The position numbers were made by a program, and so were the translations under genes. From Anaerolineae bacterium (GTDB taxonomy: Bacteria; Chloroflexota; Anaerolineae; S140-20), in contig JALUTT010000120.1 in assembly GCA_027021705.1 (NCBI GenBank), positions 7,702-71,701 of the forward strand: a stretch of 64,000 bases of DNA. Reading direction: 5' to 3'. Below are positions 24,827 to 51,879 of this stretch, piece by piece; position 1 is the first letter of the stretch, and each line of letters starts with the position of its first letter. Below the pieces are notes generated by a model that was not told where the DNA came from, did not search any database, and worked only from the letters and a program-made list of their open reading frames with translations.

Positions 24827-24922
24827 CACCCTCCCGCAGGTCCCGCGGTGCCCGGCGACAGCAAAGCTTATCGGTGGCTGCCTGCGACGCTCTCCAGGCC
24901 CTGGGGGAACCTGCGGGAGGGT
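24827..24922. repeat. Type-2 TIR miniature element: same 15-bp terminal inverted repeats as type 1 but a different ~70-nt core
   Basis: CACCCTCCCGCAGGT at 24827-41 and ACCTGCGGGAGGGT at 24909-22. Core is CCCGCGGTGCCCGGCGACAGCAAAGCTTATCGGTGGCTGCCTGCGACGCTCTCCAGGCCCTGGGGGA. Confidence 0.7.
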
Positions 24923-25014
24923 CCCCGGGTTGCTTGAAGTTTTGCCCAAACCATGCTATCATCGCTGGTGACGACCCGGACGGTTTTCCCCTCGGACCGA
25001 AGGAGACGTGGTCT

Positions 25015-27369
25015 ATGTCCTCGAAGAAGACGATCCGTGTGCTGATGCCCGACGGCGGCGTGCAGGTGATGGACCTGGAGGCCTATCTGCGTCGGGTGGT
25101 TCCCCAGGAGATGCCCGCAATCTGGCCGCTGGAAGCGCTGAAGGCCCAGGCCGTTGCCGCCCGCACCTACGCGATGGCCGCCATTGCGGCCCCACGCCAT
25201 TCGGAGCGTGGGGCCGACATCTGCACGACGACCCACTGCCAGGCCTGGGGCGCTGAGCCCCATCCCAACACCGATGCTGCCATCCAGGCCACCGCCGGCC
25301 AGTACCTCAAGTACGGCGAGCGCATCGCCACCGCCTACTTCAGCGCCTGGTGTCAGGGGCGCACCCGCACGCCGGGCCAGGCCGGCTGGACCCCCGACTC
25401 GGCTCCCTGGTGCCGCCCTGTTGATTGCCCCTGCGGTAGCCTCCGCTTCCACGAGACGACCCGCGAGTGGCTGGCCCGCCACTCCCACGGCGTCGGCCTC
25501 TGCCAGTACGGCACCCGCGAACTGGCCCGCCAGGGCAAGGATCACCGAGCCATCTTGCACCACTACTACACCGGCATTCTCATCGTCGGCTTGGAGGAGG
25601 CTGCTCCCACGCCGGCCCCCGGTCCTGCACCCTCTCTGGACGACCCTCGAGTCCTGCGCCGGCTCCAGGCCAAGCTGGCCTGGGAGGGCCGCTCCGACGA
25701 GGAGATCCGCGATCCCGCCGTCCTGGCCCAGGCTGCGCCCTTCCTGGGAGACTGGGGGGTGGAAGCGGATACCTACACCGTCCAGCCGGGCGACGCGCTG
25801 ACGGCCATCGCCGGCCGCTTCTACGGCGATCAGAGCAAGTACCGGGCCATCCAGTACTTCAACGGGCTGGCGGCACCCAACGCCATCTGGGTGGGGCAGC
25901 GGTTGCGCATCCCCTGGCCGGGGAACGCTTCGACGCCCACGCCGCCGGTCGAGCCCCCCTCCGAGGCCCACGAGCCGGCCCAGCCCGCCCCCCCCGAACC
26001 CGCCCCCGCGCCGACGGTGGACGTCACCGATCCGGCCCTGCTGCGCCGCATCCGGGCCTGGGCCGCCTTCATGGGACGGGCCGACCCCGACCTCTCCGAT
26101 CCCGAGCAGGTGGAACTGCTCAGCCGGGCGATGGGGACCTGGGGGGAGCGGGTTGCCCCCTACACCGTCCAGCCGGGCGACGCGCTGACGGCCATCGCCG
26201 GCCGCTTCTACGGTGACCAGTCCCGCTACTGGGTCATCCTTCACTTCAACGGGCTGGAGGACCCCAACGGCATCTGGGTCGGCCAGACGCTTCTCATCCC
26301 GGAGCCCCACAGCACGCCACCGCCCACCCCGGCGCCCACTCCCGGTCCGGCCCCGAAGCCGGCCCCCCAGCCTGAGCAGCCGCCGGCGCCGGAGCCGCCG
26401 GCACCGCCCGCACCGCCCGTCGTGGTCGAGGACACCCGCCGTCCCGTCGAGGATGCTGCCTTGCCCAAGGGGGAGTGCGCCTGGATCTTCGGCATCCACG
26501 ACCCCGGCTCCTGGCGGGACCTCTTCAAAGGCACCGGCAAGCGGGGGTGGGTGCTCTTCACCGAGCAGGTGGGGCACGATCCGGCCCAGGCGGCCGGCAA
26601 CACCCAGTACGCCGACTGGTCCGACGATGGCTTTGGCGTTCTGGTCCGGCTGAACAACGGTTACGGCGCGACGGGGACCATCCCCCTGCCCCAACGCTAC
26701 GGCGACTTCGCCAAAGCCTGTGCCGAGTGGGTGCGCAACTCCCGGGGCGCGCACATCTGGATCATCGGCAATGAGATGAACAACCCCCGCGAGTGGCCCC
26801 AGGGGCAGCCCATCACCCCGCAGCTTTACGCCCGCTGCTTCAACAAAGCCTACTGGGCCATCCACCAGGTCCAGCCCAACGCCATCGTCTGTCCGGGGGC
26901 GGTGGACCCCTACTACGGCCCTAGCTCCGACTGCGGCCTCTGGTTCCGACAGATGCTGGAGGCGATCCACCGGCTGGACGGCATCGTCCTGCACACCTAC
27001 ACCCACGGGCCGGAGCCGGGCCTCATCACCAGCCCCAAGAAGTTCGACAACGATCCCTTGCGCTGGCAGTACTTCAACTTCTGGGCTTACCGGACCTTCA
27101 TGGCCTTCATCCCGGAGAAGTGGCGGGACGTACCCGTCTACATCACGGAGACGGACCAGGACGAGGCGTGGGTGGATGCCAACACGGGTTGGGTGCAGGC
27201 GGCCTACGCCGAGATCCACCGCTGGAACAGCACGCCCCACAACCAGCAGATCCACGCCTTGCTCCTCTACCGCTGGCCCCACCTGGACCGCTGGGGGTTC
27301 GAGCACAAGCGGGGAGTGCACGAGGACTTCAAGGCCGCGCTGAGGAACGACTACCGCTGGCGGCGGTGA
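25015..27369 (+). CDS. Multidomain cell-wall protein: SpoIID/LytB-like domain, two LysM domains, and a C-terminal glycoside-hydrolase-like (TIM-barrel) domain
   Basis: SpoIID-like N-terminus (AVAARTYAMAAIAAPRHSERGADICTTTHCQAWG). Two near-identical LysM units (YTVQPGDALTAIAGRFYGDQS.Y..I..FNGL..PN.IWVGQ.L.IP) separated by Pro-rich linkers. C-terminal WIIGNEMN...YITETDQ pattern suggests a retaining GH. AGGAGA RBS before the ATG at 25015. Confidence 0.7.
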   Translation: MSSKKTIRVLMPDGGVQVMDLEAYLRRVVPQEMPAIWPLEALKAQAVAARTYAMAAIAAPRHSERGADICTTTHCQAWGAEPHPNTDAAIQATAGQYLKYGERIATAYFSAWCQGRTRTPGQAGWTPDSAPWCRPVDCPCGSLRFHETTREWLARHSHGVGLCQYGTRELARQGKDHRAILHHYYTGILIVGLEEAAPTPAPGPAPSLDDPRVLRRLQAKLAWEGRSDEEIRDPAVLAQAAPFLGDWGVEADTYTVQPGDALTAIAGRFYGDQSKYRAIQYFNGLAAPNAIWVGQRLRIPWPGNASTPTPPVEPPSEAHEPAQPAPPEPAPAPTVDVTDPALLRRIRAWAAFMGRADPDLSDPEQVELLSRAMGTWGERVAPYTVQPGDALTAIAGRFYGDQSRYWVILHFNGLEDPNGIWVGQTLLIPEPHSTPPPTPAPTPGPAPKPAPQPEQPPAPEPPAPPAPPVVVEDTRRPVEDAALPKGECAWIFGIHDPGSWRDLFKGTGKRGWVLFTEQVGHDPAQAAGNTQYADWSDDGFGVLVRLNNGYGATGTIPLPQRYGDFAKACAEWVRNSRGAHIWIIGNEMNNPREWPQGQPITPQLYARCFNKAYWAIHQVQPNAIVCPGAVDPYYGPSSDCGLWFRQMLEAIHRLDGIVLHTYTHGPEPGLITSPKKFDNDPLRWQYFNFWAYRTFMAFIPEKWRDVPVYITETDQDEAWVDANTGWVQAAYAEIHRWNSTPHNQQIHALLLYRWPHLDRWGFEHKRGVHEDFKAALRNDYRWRR

Positions 27370-27421
27370 GGGGCACCGGGTTCCGATCCACGGGGAGGAC
27401 GTTCAGAGGAGGGAGAGCCTT

Positions 27422-50849: not shown

Positions 50850-50919
50850 CAGGTTCCTTCCTTTCCTTGGCCTAAACGGACTTAAACGGCGCTGACCCCA
50901 GGCGCTTGGGGGATAGGTC

Positions 50920-51801
50920 TCATCCTTTCACAGCCCACAGGTAAGCGACGGCCTGGCACTGCCGGCCCTGCCGGGCTTCGATCAGAGGGCGCAGGTGGGC
51001 CTCGAAACGGGCCGCCTCTTCGGGGGTGAGGACTTGGGCGATCACCTCTCCCAGGGCGGGGACGCGCGGGTTGGGCGGTGCCCGCATCGCCACCTCCCAC
51101 GAGGGCGGCCAGGTCGGCGGCTGGAGGTCCACCCGCAGCTCCAGGTGGATTTCGGCGAAGCCGGCCGCCTCGCTGTACCGGAGCAGGTCCCGCTCGTCGA
51201 AGTTGAGCATCGGGTCGGTCTCGTCGGGCTGATGCTGTCGGTAGAAGGCCCGGATCCGCCGGACCAGGTCCGCCACCGGCGTGAGGTCGTACCCCCAGAG
51301 GCGGGTGTCGGACCGGTCGCTGAGCCCATAGCGGTTGATGGGCTCGAAGAGGGAGATGCGACCGCCGGGCCGGAGCACCCGGTGGAAGGCCCGGAAGGCC
51401 GCCGCTTTGTCGGCGACGTAGATGAGCACCGAACGGGTGGTGACGACGTCCACCGACCCATCGGCGATGGACCGCAGGTCCTCGGCGGCGGCCCGGACGA
51501 AGCTACAGCGGTCGGCCACCCCCATCTGTTCGGCCAGAGCACGGGCGTGGTCCAACAGAGGCTGGGAAATGTCGCTGAGGATGACGCGCCCCGTGGGACC
51601 GACCCGTTCCAGGGCACCGAAGGCGATGAGGCCATCGCCGGCCCCCACGTCGAGGAGCGTTTCCCCCTCCCGGACCTGCGCGTGGTCGAGGACCTTGTCG
51701 CGGATGGCGTAGAGAAGGCGCAGGGCCTCCGCCGCGTAAGTCTCATCCCCGCCAAAGCGGGTCTCGATCACCCACCGCGCCCAGGGGTCCTGCTCAGCCA
51801 T
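50920..51801 (-). CDS. Class I SAM-dependent methyltransferase
   Basis: Motif I LLDVGAGDGLIAFGA, post-I ILSDIS and motif II VDVVTTRSVLIYV. Confidence 0.75.
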   Translation of the reverse strand: MAEQDPWARWVIETRFGGDETYAAEALRLLYAIRDKVLDHAQVREGETLLDVGAGDGLIAFGALERVGPTGRVILSDISQPLLDHARALAEQMGVADRCSFVRAAAEDLRSIADGSVDVVTTRSVLIYVADKAAAFRAFHRVLRPGGRISLFEPINRYGLSDRSDTRLWGYDLTPVADLVRRIRAFYRQHQPDETDPMLNFDERDLLRYSEAAGFAEIHLELRVDLQPPTWPPSWEVAMRAPPNPRVPALGEVIAQVLTPEEAARFEAHLRPLIEARQGRQCQAVAYLWAVKG

Positions 51802-51824
51802 GGAACCGCCTCCCCACCCTCCTG

Positions 51825-51879
51825 CAGGTCACGCGATGCGCGGCGACAGCGATGGCTTATCGTAGGAACCTGCAGGAGG
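51825..51879. repeat. Short type-2-related element with variant TIRs (CACCCTCCTGCAGGT ... ACCTGCAGGAGG)
   Basis: Core CACGCGATGCGCGGCGACAGCGATGGCTTATCGTAGGA resembles the type-2 core (GCGGTGCCCGGCGACAGCAAAGCTTATCGGTGG). Confidence 0.55.

What the first reader, a model, noticed from the sequence alone, without database searches (positions are those of the whole stretch)
24827..51879. Second element type that shares the same TIRs but carries a different core (type 2): three copies
Copies at 24827-24922, 29770-29864 (TIRs degenerate) and 51825-51879 (short, TIR variant CCTGCAGG) carry the same termini CACCCTCC(C/T)GCAGGT ... ACCTGC(G/A)GGAGG. The sequence between the termini is unrelated to type 1: CCCGCGGTGCCCGGCGACAGCAAAGCTTATCGGTGGCTGCCTGCGACGCTCTCCAGGCCCTGGGGGA. 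Conserved termini with alternative cargo implies the ends are the functional, selected part. That fits a transposase or recombinase recognition site, or a protein/RNA binding site. The 24827 copy abuts tRNA-Leu, and the 51825 copy sits in a divergent promoter region.
Basis: seen in the sequence. Interest (0 to 1): 0.7.

Follow-up and report, generated by a model that had tools for sequence, protein, structure and literature searches.

The report
Hairpin repeat family in a Chloroflexota genome
The flagged "type 2" sequences are real copies of a small non-coding palindromic repeat (a miniature transposon-like element) that litters the spaces between genes of an uncultured hydrothermal Chloroflexota bacterium; this is an ordinary kind of selfish DNA, though this family has not been described before.

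Summary
All three copies exist, and a fourth lies at 59219-59316. The terminus 12-mer occurs 24 times in the window against 2.1 expected.

More than 30 further copies were found in contigs of related Chloroflexota, including tandem arrays of 3 and about 12 units. A divergent copy sits in a phage-like contig.

The ~96-bp unit is the conserved central hairpin of a larger modular palindromic element of 138-156 bp. In its four best-preserved copies that element is bounded by direct repeats of 7-13 bp.

Copies are strictly intergenic, occur in either orientation, and are present or absent between relatives that are 88-94% identical. They decay by internal deletions that keep the 13-14-bp stem.

Type 1 is a separate 122-bp MITE. 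It has IS66/ISBst12-like tips (GTAACTG...), an 8-bp target duplication and a confirmed empty site.

The shared "TIR" is therefore a sub-terminal stem, not the transposon end. One transposase acting on both types is not supported.

No Rfam family, no transposase gene in the window, and no consistent transcription orientation were found.

Verdict: a new lineage-specific MITE/BIME-like repeat family, of modest interest.

The parts
24827..24922 (+). Type-2 hairpin unit, full length, perfect 14-bp stem
   Evidence: nhmmer E = 9e-22. It folds into a long hairpin, -58 kcal/mol, z = -3.7. It is absent from the 88-94% identical relative L085.
24803..24826 (+). Tentative left outer arm of the 24827 copy (A-like: GCTTTTTCATCGCTCTATGGTCAC)
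   Evidence: It resembles the left arm of the direct-repeat-bounded copy L075 3074-3229 and the A-arm motif CTTTTCAGCGCTCTAACCC. Most of it is missing from L085 together with the hairpin.
24923..24952 (+). Tentative, degenerate right arm of the 24827 copy. It overlaps the -35 of the spoIID promoter-like site.
   Evidence: Weak similarity to the A arm, by eye. Promoter-like site TTGAAG-17-TATCAT at 24934-24962. Low confidence, because this stretch is also present in L085 and L087.
29769..29864 (+). Type-2 hairpin unit with a degenerate left stem (CCTCTCGCA-GT)
   Evidence: E = 4e-21. Conserved in place in the 99.35% identical L086.
29865..29888 (+). Tentative B-like right arm of the 29769 copy (reverse complement GAGAGCCTGACCATCAGCTC...)
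   Evidence: by eye, against the B-arm motif AGCTACCTGACGGTG seen beside stems in L062, L063, L077 and L085.
51815..51881 (+). Type-2 deletion derivative: 31 nt of the 3' core is lost, and both stems are kept with a compensated C:G>T:A change
   Evidence: E = 1e-10; fold z = -6.
59219..59316 (+). Fourth type-2 copy, in the gyrA-csd spacer, with a compensated stem change (CTTCCC/GGGAAG)
   Evidence: E = 3e-17. At the orthologous spacer the 96% GyrA relative keeps only a 27-nt stem remnant, and 67% relatives have an 11-bp spacer.
28046..28167 (-). Type-1 MITE, 122 bp, 8-bp target duplication CGATGCTT (+ strand)
   Evidence: Empty site in L085.
32115..32236 (+). Type-1 MITE with a diverged left tip; no duplication recognised
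33350..33471 (+). Type-1 MITE, 8-bp duplication GGCCGGAG
59774..59895 (+). Type-1 MITE, 8-bp duplication TGCCCTGG / TGCTCTGG
62770..62845 (+). Type-1 internal-deletion derivative; both stems kept
8574..8616 (-). Remnant of a type-1 left end, next to degenerate core-like sequence
   Evidence: E = 7e-9.
24672..24756 (-). tRNA-Leu gene. Its promoter-like site (24768-24796, - strand) separates it from the 24827 copy.

Best explanation
**What it is.** Type 2 is a lineage-specific family of non-coding, non-autonomous mobile-element-like repeats (MITE/BIME-like) in an uncultured hydrothermal Chloroflexota lineage.

It sits inside a larger, modular, imperfectly palindromic element of about 138-156 bp. 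That element carries optional outer 'arms', here called A and B.

**How it most likely works.**
- Shown: copies are inserted or lost between close relatives. Well-preserved copies are bounded by short direct repeats. Copies are intergenic, occur in either orientation, form local tandem arrays, and decay by internal deletions that spare the stem.
- Inferred: copies were inserted by a transposase supplied in trans that makes staggered cuts, which would give the 7-13-bp direct repeats.
- Inferred: arrays arose by unequal recombination.
- Inferred: the stem persists for one of three reasons. Pairing may be selected at the DNA or RNA hairpin level. The stem may be a sub-terminal protein-binding site. 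Or palindrome-internal deletion and repair may mechanically preserve it.

**Relation to type 1.** Type 1 is a separate, younger MITE of 122 bp. It has IS66/ISBst12-like tips and a fixed 8-bp duplication, and it carries the same sub-terminal stem around a different core. The shared 14 bp are not the cleaved transposon ends.
For: **The family is real.**
- Four window copies and more than 30 copies in related contigs.
- No Rfam family matches any copy.

**Gain and loss.**
- The 24827 copy is absent from L085 (88-94% nt identity).
- L085 has its own copy at 1668-1763 that the window lacks.
- L087 carries a variant hairpin at the same spoIID-upstream site.
- The gyrA-csd copy is full length in the window, a 27-nt stem remnant in L079, and absent in 67% GyrA relatives.

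**Flanking direct repeats.**
- Repeats of 11, 13, 9 and 7 bp abut the outer arms of L062, L078, L075 and L077.
- Shuffle p is about 0.00, 0.00, 0.02 and 0.33 respectively.
- They delimit elements of 141, 138, 156 and 144 bp.

**Modular arms.**
- Two of the ten fuzzy matches to the A-arm motif (L053, L077) are not beside a type-2 hairpin.
- The other eight lie directly beside a hairpin of this family: type-2 stems in L047 (three), L059, L075, L078 and L085, and the variant stem in L087.

**Tandem arrays.** 3 units in L047 and about 12 in L050.

**Stem conservation and compensation.**

**Deletion derivatives that keep both stems.**

**Type 1 as a positive control.**
- An 8-bp duplication in 7 of 9 copies, plus a confirmed empty site.
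- Tips match ISDge4 (IS66 family, ISBst12 group): TIRs GTAACTGCTCAGCA / GTGACTACTCAGCA with an 8-bp direct repeat (PMC12898284).

**Evidence for a DNA-level element.**
- The 24827 copy lies between two outward-facing promoter-like sites.
- Orientation relative to flanking co-directional genes is 8 same / 4 opposite. This is my tally.
Against: - Only 4 of about 21 dispersed copies show flanking direct repeats, and none of the four window copies does.
- The repeat lengths vary from 7 to 13 bp, unlike the fixed length typical of one DDE transposase.
- No autonomous parent element or transposase was found in about 250 kb of this lineage or in the window.
- Most copies lack recognisable arms. The 'naked' hairpin could therefore be the basic unit and the armed copies composites.
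- There is some covariation inside the core: 6 pairs with double changes, 96% of cells paired, and 0/500 shuffles reaching the observed score. The forward strand also has the better consensus fold, -39.3 vs -30.4 kcal/mol. An RNA role is compatible with both.
- Retrieval of most relatives used a pattern that required parts of the stems, which inflates stem conservation for type 2.
Confidence: 0.62

Rival explanations
1. One reading: types 1 and 2 are two MITE families mobilised by one transposase that recognises the shared 15-bp TIR, each carrying different cargo.
For: - Both types carry an identical 13-14-bp inverted repeat.
- Both types span exactly 90-92 nt from CCTCCC to GGGAG.
- Both co-occur in the same genomes.
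- Type 1 is demonstrably transposed.
Against: - The shared sequence is internal to type 1's real ends.
- Type 2 lacks the GTAACTG / GTATCTA tips.
- The type-2 direct repeats are 7-13 bp and lie at different distances from the stem, against a fixed 8 bp for type 1.
- Similarity between type-1 tips and type-2 arms is not significant after multiple testing.
Confidence: 0.1
2. REP/REPIN-like element. The hairpin is recognised as single-stranded DNA by a HUH tyrosine transposase (RAYT/TIRYT-like) and spreads without target duplication. The armed, repeat-bounded copies are secondary composites.
For: - Most copies show no flanking duplication.
- The elements have a long-hairpin architecture, an intergenic location often 4-42 nt after a stop codon (my tally), tandem arrays, and BIME-like mosaics with other modules.
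- Families of long TIR repeats associated with tyrosine transposases are described in PMC3733652.
Against: - The unit is about 96 bp, not 20-40 bp.
- There is no GTAG or CGTC tag at the stem ends.
- Four copies do have flanking direct repeats.
- No Y1_Tnp hit was found among the window ORFs.
Confidence: 0.12
3. A functional structured RNA, either a cis-regulatory leader or intercistronic element or a small RNA, whose closing helix is the conserved stem.
For: - The consensus structure has 96% of cells paired and 6 pairs with double changes, and exceeds the shuffles.
- G.U pairs make the forward strand the better one.
- Two window copies lie in transcribed spacers: upstream of the Opp binding-protein gene, and between gyrA and csd.
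- In L043 the 3' arm GGGAG lies 8 nt before a start codon.
Against: - The inner core is no more stable than shuffles, z about 0.2.
- Per-copy MFE structures disagree except for the stem.
- Copies occur in both orientations relative to transcription.
- One copy lies between divergent promoters.
- Neighbouring genes are unrelated.
- Copies are present or absent among close relatives.
- Tandem arrays of up to 12 units occur.
- No Rfam hit.
- In the stem, wobble and mismatch cells are about equal (7 vs 8). There is therefore no strand-specific RNA signature.
Confidence: 0.06
4. The stem plus ~92-nt hairpin is a self-standing functional module: a hairpin acting as a transcription insulator or terminator, an mRNA stabiliser, or a protein-binding palindrome. 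It has been picked up as a passenger by at least two different transposon end-pairs and by a phage.
For: - The same stem and the same length occur inside ISBst12-tipped type 1, A/B-armed type 2 and a phage-borne copy.
- The stem is kept in all deletion derivatives.
- Compensatory changes occur at an orthologous site, L087 GGCTCCCGC / GCGGGAGCC.
- Several copies sit just after a stop codon and/or just upstream of a -35 box.
Against: - There is no U-tract after the stem.
- Uncompensated stem mutations also occur, in w29770, L085_1668 and L059_271.
- Proximity to promoters is seen in only about a quarter of loci and is expected for intergenic elements.
- Descent from a common ancestral element explains the shared stem more simply.
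Confidence: 0.1

Closest known systems
Bacterial MITEs such as Correia/NEMIS elements (Neisseria), RUP (S. pneumoniae) and ERIC; definition as summarised in PMC3733652
   Same: - Size of 70-300 bp, non-coding, with terminal inverted repeats.
- Intergenic, co-transcribed with neighbouring genes, and able to fold into long hairpins.
- Subfamilies differ by internal deletions.
- Present or absent between strains.
- Flanking direct repeats in the best-preserved copies.
   Different: - Direct-repeat length is variable (7-13 bp) and is seen in only 4 of about 21 copies.
- The most conserved part is a sub-terminal stem rather than the extreme tips.
- Tandem arrays reach about 12 units.
- No parent IS has been identified.
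BIMEs/REPs of enterobacteria, and REPINs
   Same: - Palindromic extragenic repeats combined with other short modules in mosaics and tandem clusters.
- Frequent location just downstream of genes.
- Hairpin pairing is maintained.
   Different: - The unit is about 96 bp rather than 20-40 bp.
- No GTAG or CGTC tag.
- Some copies have flanking duplications.
- No RAYT was found.
IS66-family, ISBst12-group insertion sequences (e.g. ISDge4 of Deinococcus geothermalis, PMC12898284)
   Same: This applies to type 1 only. Its tips GTAACTGTTCACCC / GTATCTATTCAGCC compare with GTAACTGCTCAGCA / GTGACTACTCAGCA, and both make an 8-bp duplication.
   Different: Type 2 has neither these tips nor a fixed 8-bp duplication. 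Type 1 is a 122-bp non-coding derivative, not an IS.

Membership tests
MITE | Short (about 70-300 bp) and non-coding | tested here: met
   The hairpin unit is 90-98 bp. Direct-repeat-bounded elements are 138-156 bp. No ORF is specific to the unit; the ORFs overlapping it are read-through artefacts.
MITE | Terminal inverted repeats of about 15-30 bp | tested here: met
   The inner stem is a 13-17-bp perfect inverted repeat. An extended, imperfect left/right arm complementarity is clear only in L075 3074-3229.
MITE | Target-site duplication of fixed length flanking the element | tested here: inconclusive
   Direct repeats of 11, 13, 9 and 7 bp flank 4 copies. There is no consistent duplication at fixed offsets in 18 copies, and none at the four window copies. 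The type-1 control gave 7 of 9 copies with 8 bp.
MITE | Insertion polymorphism (filled versus empty sites) | tested here: met
   - Window 24827 copy versus L085.
- L085 1668 copy versus the window.
- The gyrA-csd spacer series.

Whether each case is a gain or a loss is not resolved.
MITE | A cognate autonomous IS with the same ends, encoding the transposase | not testable with these tools
   None was found in the window or in about 250 kb of related loci.
REP / REPIN (RAYT-mobilised) | A 20-40-bp imperfect palindrome tagged by GTAG or CGTC at one end (PMC3733652) | tested here: not met
   The unit is about 96 bp, and no conserved GTAG or CGTC is present at the stem ends.
REP / REPIN (RAYT-mobilised) | An associated RAYT (Y1/HUH transposase) gene flanked by the repeats | not testable with these tools
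   No Y1_Tnp hit among about 40 window ORFs.
IS66 / ISBst12-derived MITE | Tips beginning GTAA, and an 8-bp duplication | tested here: not met
   Met for type 1. Not met for type 2, whose flanks lack the tips and whose arm similarity to them is not significant.
Described structured RNA family (Rfam 15) | Match to a covariance model at the gathering score | tested here: not met
   Only tRNAs are reported in the window and in 110 kb of loci. The best sub-threshold hits are chance miRNA-like hairpins with E >= 1.
Intrinsic terminator | G+C-rich hairpin followed by a T-run | tested here: not met
   No terminator-like site is reported at the 24827 or 51815 copies. The stems are followed by GGGT(T/C)CC.

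The most novel reading that the evidence does not exclude
The invariant 13-14-bp stem with its ~92-nt hairpin may be an independent functional module. It could be a DNA or RNA hairpin bound by a host or phage factor, or a transcription insulator or mRNA-stability element. On this reading it has been captured as cargo by at least two unrelated transposon end-pairs (ISBst12-like type 1 and A/B-armed type 2) and by a phage. These MITEs would then spread a regulatory hairpin rather than being merely decayed insertion sequences.
Probability: 0.12. Interest if true: 0.6.

Novelty: new member of a known kind. Interest (0 to 1): 0.33.

Why it matters
- It documents a previously undescribed, abundant repeat system in a poorly known, uncultured Chloroflexota lineage. 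The window holds about one element per 6 kb. If that density held genome-wide, there would be hundreds of copies; this is an extrapolation, not a count.
- These repeats break metagenome assemblies. Contigs of the related MAG end at them (L079, L087).
- They mark synteny breakpoints and can reshape promoter-proximal DNA.
- They are useful strain-level markers.
- One feature is mildly unusual and could inform how MITE families arise: a sub-terminal stem that is more conserved than the transposon tips, and that is shared by two differently tipped elements and a phage copy.
- Otherwise this is ordinary selfish DNA.

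Tried and rejected
- **Known riboswitch or ncRNA.** Rfam at gathering and permissive thresholds found nothing but tRNA.
- **Genome-contig scan with a type-2 core pattern.** It returned only chance hits in coding regions, and the scan was wasted.
- **Exact look-up of the window's GyrA.** Not on record.
- **tRNA association.** Only 2 of about 20 loci are near tRNA genes.
- **Promoter association.** About a quarter of loci, so not decisive.
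- **Fixed-offset search for a target duplication in type 2.** Negative. This was later qualified by the per-copy search.
- **Homology between type-1 tips and type-2 arms.** Not significant.
- **Core homology of type 1 with type 2.** Marginal.
- **Transposase or RAYT in the window.** None found by Pfam.
- **Extending the window through AlaRS.** This gave only about 1 kb more.
- **Text search for the stem sequence and for Chloroflexi MITEs.** No description of this family was found.
- **Integron attC, CRISPR, retron, KOPS.** These were considered from the anatomy and dismissed. The neighbours are housekeeping genes, there are no cassettes, no regular spacers and no reverse transcriptase, and the motif does not fit GGGNAGGG.

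Full report
**Observation**

Reading the three coordinates confirms the copies.
- 24827-24922 carries perfect termini ACCCTCCCGCAGGT / ACCTGCGGGAGGGT.
- 29769-29864 has a degenerate left arm.
- The short copy is really 51815-51881. Its arms are CCTCCTGCAGG / CCTGCAGGAGG, a C:G>T:A change compensated on both arms.
- A fourth copy lies at 59219-59316, between gyrA and a zinc-ribbon/cold-shock-domain gene. It has another compensated change, CTTCCC / GGGAAG.

The terminus 12-mer with up to 1 mismatch occurs 24 times in the window, against 2.1 +/- 1.4 in shuffles. All 15 exact matches are in elements, and 8 inverted pairs are formed.

**Context**

The window comes from an uncultured Chloroflexota organism.
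- The best GyrA match is 96% identical, to MAG GCA_003695545.1. The next best is 67%, from Anaerolineae-like MAGs.
- A 99.35% identical contig comes from a hydrothermal-vent metagenome.
- All genes annotated in the window are ordinary cellular genes, and none is a transposase or RAYT gene.

The four copies lie in these intergenic spacers:
- tRNA-Leu / spoIID, which are divergent. The element sits between two outward-facing promoter-like sites.
- NUDIX / Opp binding-protein gene.
- Methyltransferase / TPR-SLT gene, which are divergent.
- gyrA / csd.

**Relatives**

The genome-collection scan gave only chance hits. The metagenome scan found type 2 in 13 contigs of one JGI metagenome, Ga0256830. 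These contigs also carry near-identical type-1 copies.

An HMM search of these loci found more than 30 type-2 copies. They include two tandem arrays:
- 3 units with a 124-bp period, upstream of a tRNA-Ala promoter (L047).
- About 12 units with a 112-bp period (L050). One unit is interrupted by an unrelated 84-bp insertion flanked by a CTAG duplication.

A viral-contig scan found one copy with identical 17-bp termini next to terS in a phage-like contig. Its core is roughly 50% diverged but aligns to type 2 in reverse orientation (p = 0.004; nhmmer E = 5e-4).

No copy of either type matches any Rfam family.

**Type 1 as a control**

Type 1 extends beyond the shared stem to GTAACTGTTCAC...GTAGGCTGAATAGATAC, 122 bp in all.
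- 7 of 9 copies have an 8-bp target duplication at a fixed offset.
- The relative L085 (88-94% nt identity) has the empty site: GGTTCCATGTTCCCC, against CGATGCTT[element]CGATGCTT in the window.
- The tips resemble those reported for ISDge4 (IS66 family, ISBst12 group): GTAACTGCTCAGCA / GTGACTACTCAGCA with an 8-bp direct repeat (PMC12898284).

Type 1 is therefore a bona fide MITE. The 'shared TIR' lies inside its true ends.

**Anatomy of type 2**

A fixed-offset search found no consistent duplication (at most 2 of 18 copies). A per-copy search gave a different picture.
- It found exact direct repeats of 11, 13 and 9 bp (shuffle p about 0.00, 0.00 and 0.02) and one of 7 bp. They lie 18-27 bp left and 27-37 bp right of the stems of L062, L078, L075 and L077.
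- They bound elements of 141, 138, 156 and 144 bp.

The sequence between a direct repeat and the stem consists of recurring 'arm' modules.
- The A arm has the motif CTTTTCAGCGCTCTAACCC.
  - Two of the ten fuzzy matches (L053, L077) are not beside a hairpin.
  - The other eight lie directly beside a hairpin of this family: type-2 stems in L047 (three), L059, L075, L078 and L085, and the variant stem in L087.
- The B arm has the motif AGCTACCTGACGGTG. It lies beside stems in L062, L063, L077 (twice) and L085.
- The 24827 copy has an A-like left arm, and the 29769 copy a B-like right arm. Both assignments are by eye and tentative.
- Many copies have no recognisable arms.

**Dynamics**
- The 24827 copy is missing from L085 (window 24809-24927 against 1-12 nt there).
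- L087 (92.6% identity) has, at the same place upstream of the spoIID promoter, a variant hairpin followed by an A-like module. Its stem has changed on both arms: GGCTCCCGC / GCGGGAGCC.
- L085 has its own copy with an A arm upstream of another promoter, where the window has none.
- The gyrA-csd copy is reduced to a 27-nt stem-only remnant in L079. It is absent in 67% GyrA relatives, whose spacer is 11 bp.
- Six independent deletion derivatives, 27-72 nt long, all keep both stems.
- Mean pairwise identity, stem versus core, is 94.5% vs 77% for type 2 and 99% vs 91% for type 1. Type 2 is the older family. The type-2 stem figure is inflated, because the retrieval pattern required parts of the stem.

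**RNA or DNA?**

Some features are compatible with a structured RNA.
- A consensus structure is 96% paired and has 6 pairs with double changes. No shuffle reaches the observed score.
- The forward strand folds better than the reverse complement, -39.3 vs -30.4 kcal/mol.

More features argue against a dedicated RNA.
- The inner core is no more stable than shuffles, z about 0.2.
- Per-copy MFE structures agree only on the stem.
- Wobble and mismatch cells in the stem are about equal, 7 vs 8.
- Orientation relative to flanking co-directional genes is 8 same / 4 opposite.
- One copy sits between divergent promoters.
- Neighbouring genes are unrelated.

Together with the arrays and the insertion polymorphism, this favours a DNA-level selfish element whose hairpin is only incidentally transcribed.

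**What remains open**
- Which enzyme moved type 2.
- Why the direct repeats vary from 7 to 13 bp.
- Why a sub-terminal 13-14-bp stem is shared by two differently tipped elements and a phage-borne copy, together with the 90-93-nt span it encloses. Common descent is the simplest answer: core similarity of type 1 to type 2 has p about 0.03. A functional hairpin module carried as cargo is not excluded.

**Verdict**

This is a new lineage-specific member of the known MITE/BIME kind, of modest interest.

Noticed in passing
window 30220-30286 (arms 30220-30250 / 30256-30286); also L059 10344-10502: This is another, unrelated hairpin repeat built from CACGAAT motifs (CACGAATGCACGAA...TTCGTGCATTCGTG). 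It lies in the long spacer upstream of the Opp binding-protein gene. It is 78% identical over about 160 nt to a stretch of a Ga0256830 contig. No Rfam match.
   Followed up: partly
window 41155-43446 (+): The GDP-mannose 4,6-dehydratase gene is interrupted by an intein with a LAGLIDADG homing-endonuclease domain: Intein_splicing and LAGLIDADG_3 lie between the two halves of GDP_Man_Dehyd.
   Followed up: no
L050 1759-1848: An 84-bp insertion (TGGACCGTCAAC...GTTGACAAACCA) sits inside one unit of the type-2 tandem array and is flanked by a CTAG duplication. It is a third, unrelated MITE-like element.
   Followed up: no
type-2 3' region, e.g. window 24897-24913 and 29836-29855: The 13-mer GGGGAACCTGCGG is identical to the loop plus 3' strand of 16S rRNA helix 45. 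The 5' arm CCGCAGG mimics the other strand of that helix. The E. coli 16S 3' end was confirmed. This organism's own 16S was not available, so the match may be coincidence.
   Followed up: partly
L083 4566-4664 (IMGVR_UViG_3300033145_003413): A divergent member of the family, with a perfect 17-bp stem, lies between terS and a large surface-protein gene of a phage-like contig of about 58% GC. This suggests a phage link to this host lineage.
   Followed up: partly
L087 312-372 (GCA_003695545.1), orthologous to window ~24830-24920: A variant hairpin has its stem changed on both arms (GGCTCCCGC / GCGGGAGCC), an unrelated core containing a perfect 11-bp inner hairpin, and an A-like module after it. 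Synteny upstream of it differs from the window, with a response-regulator gene in place of tRNA-Leu.
   Followed up: partly
L050 1246-1333: An 8-bp microsatellite, GTCAACGA x 11, lies immediately upstream of the 12-unit type-2 array.
   Followed up: no
window 17128-17924 and 19439-20239 (-): Nucleotidyltransferase/HEPN-type genes, which are toxin-antitoxin-like, flank gatA. A similar HEPN/NTP_transf_2 pair occurs near gyrA in the 67% relatives.
   Followed up: no
window 59202-59334; L080 11609-11621: gyrA is followed by a zinc-ribbon plus cold-shock-domain gene in all relatives examined. The spacer is only 11 bp in distant relatives. The type-2 copy was therefore inserted inside what looks like an operon.
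   Followed up: partly
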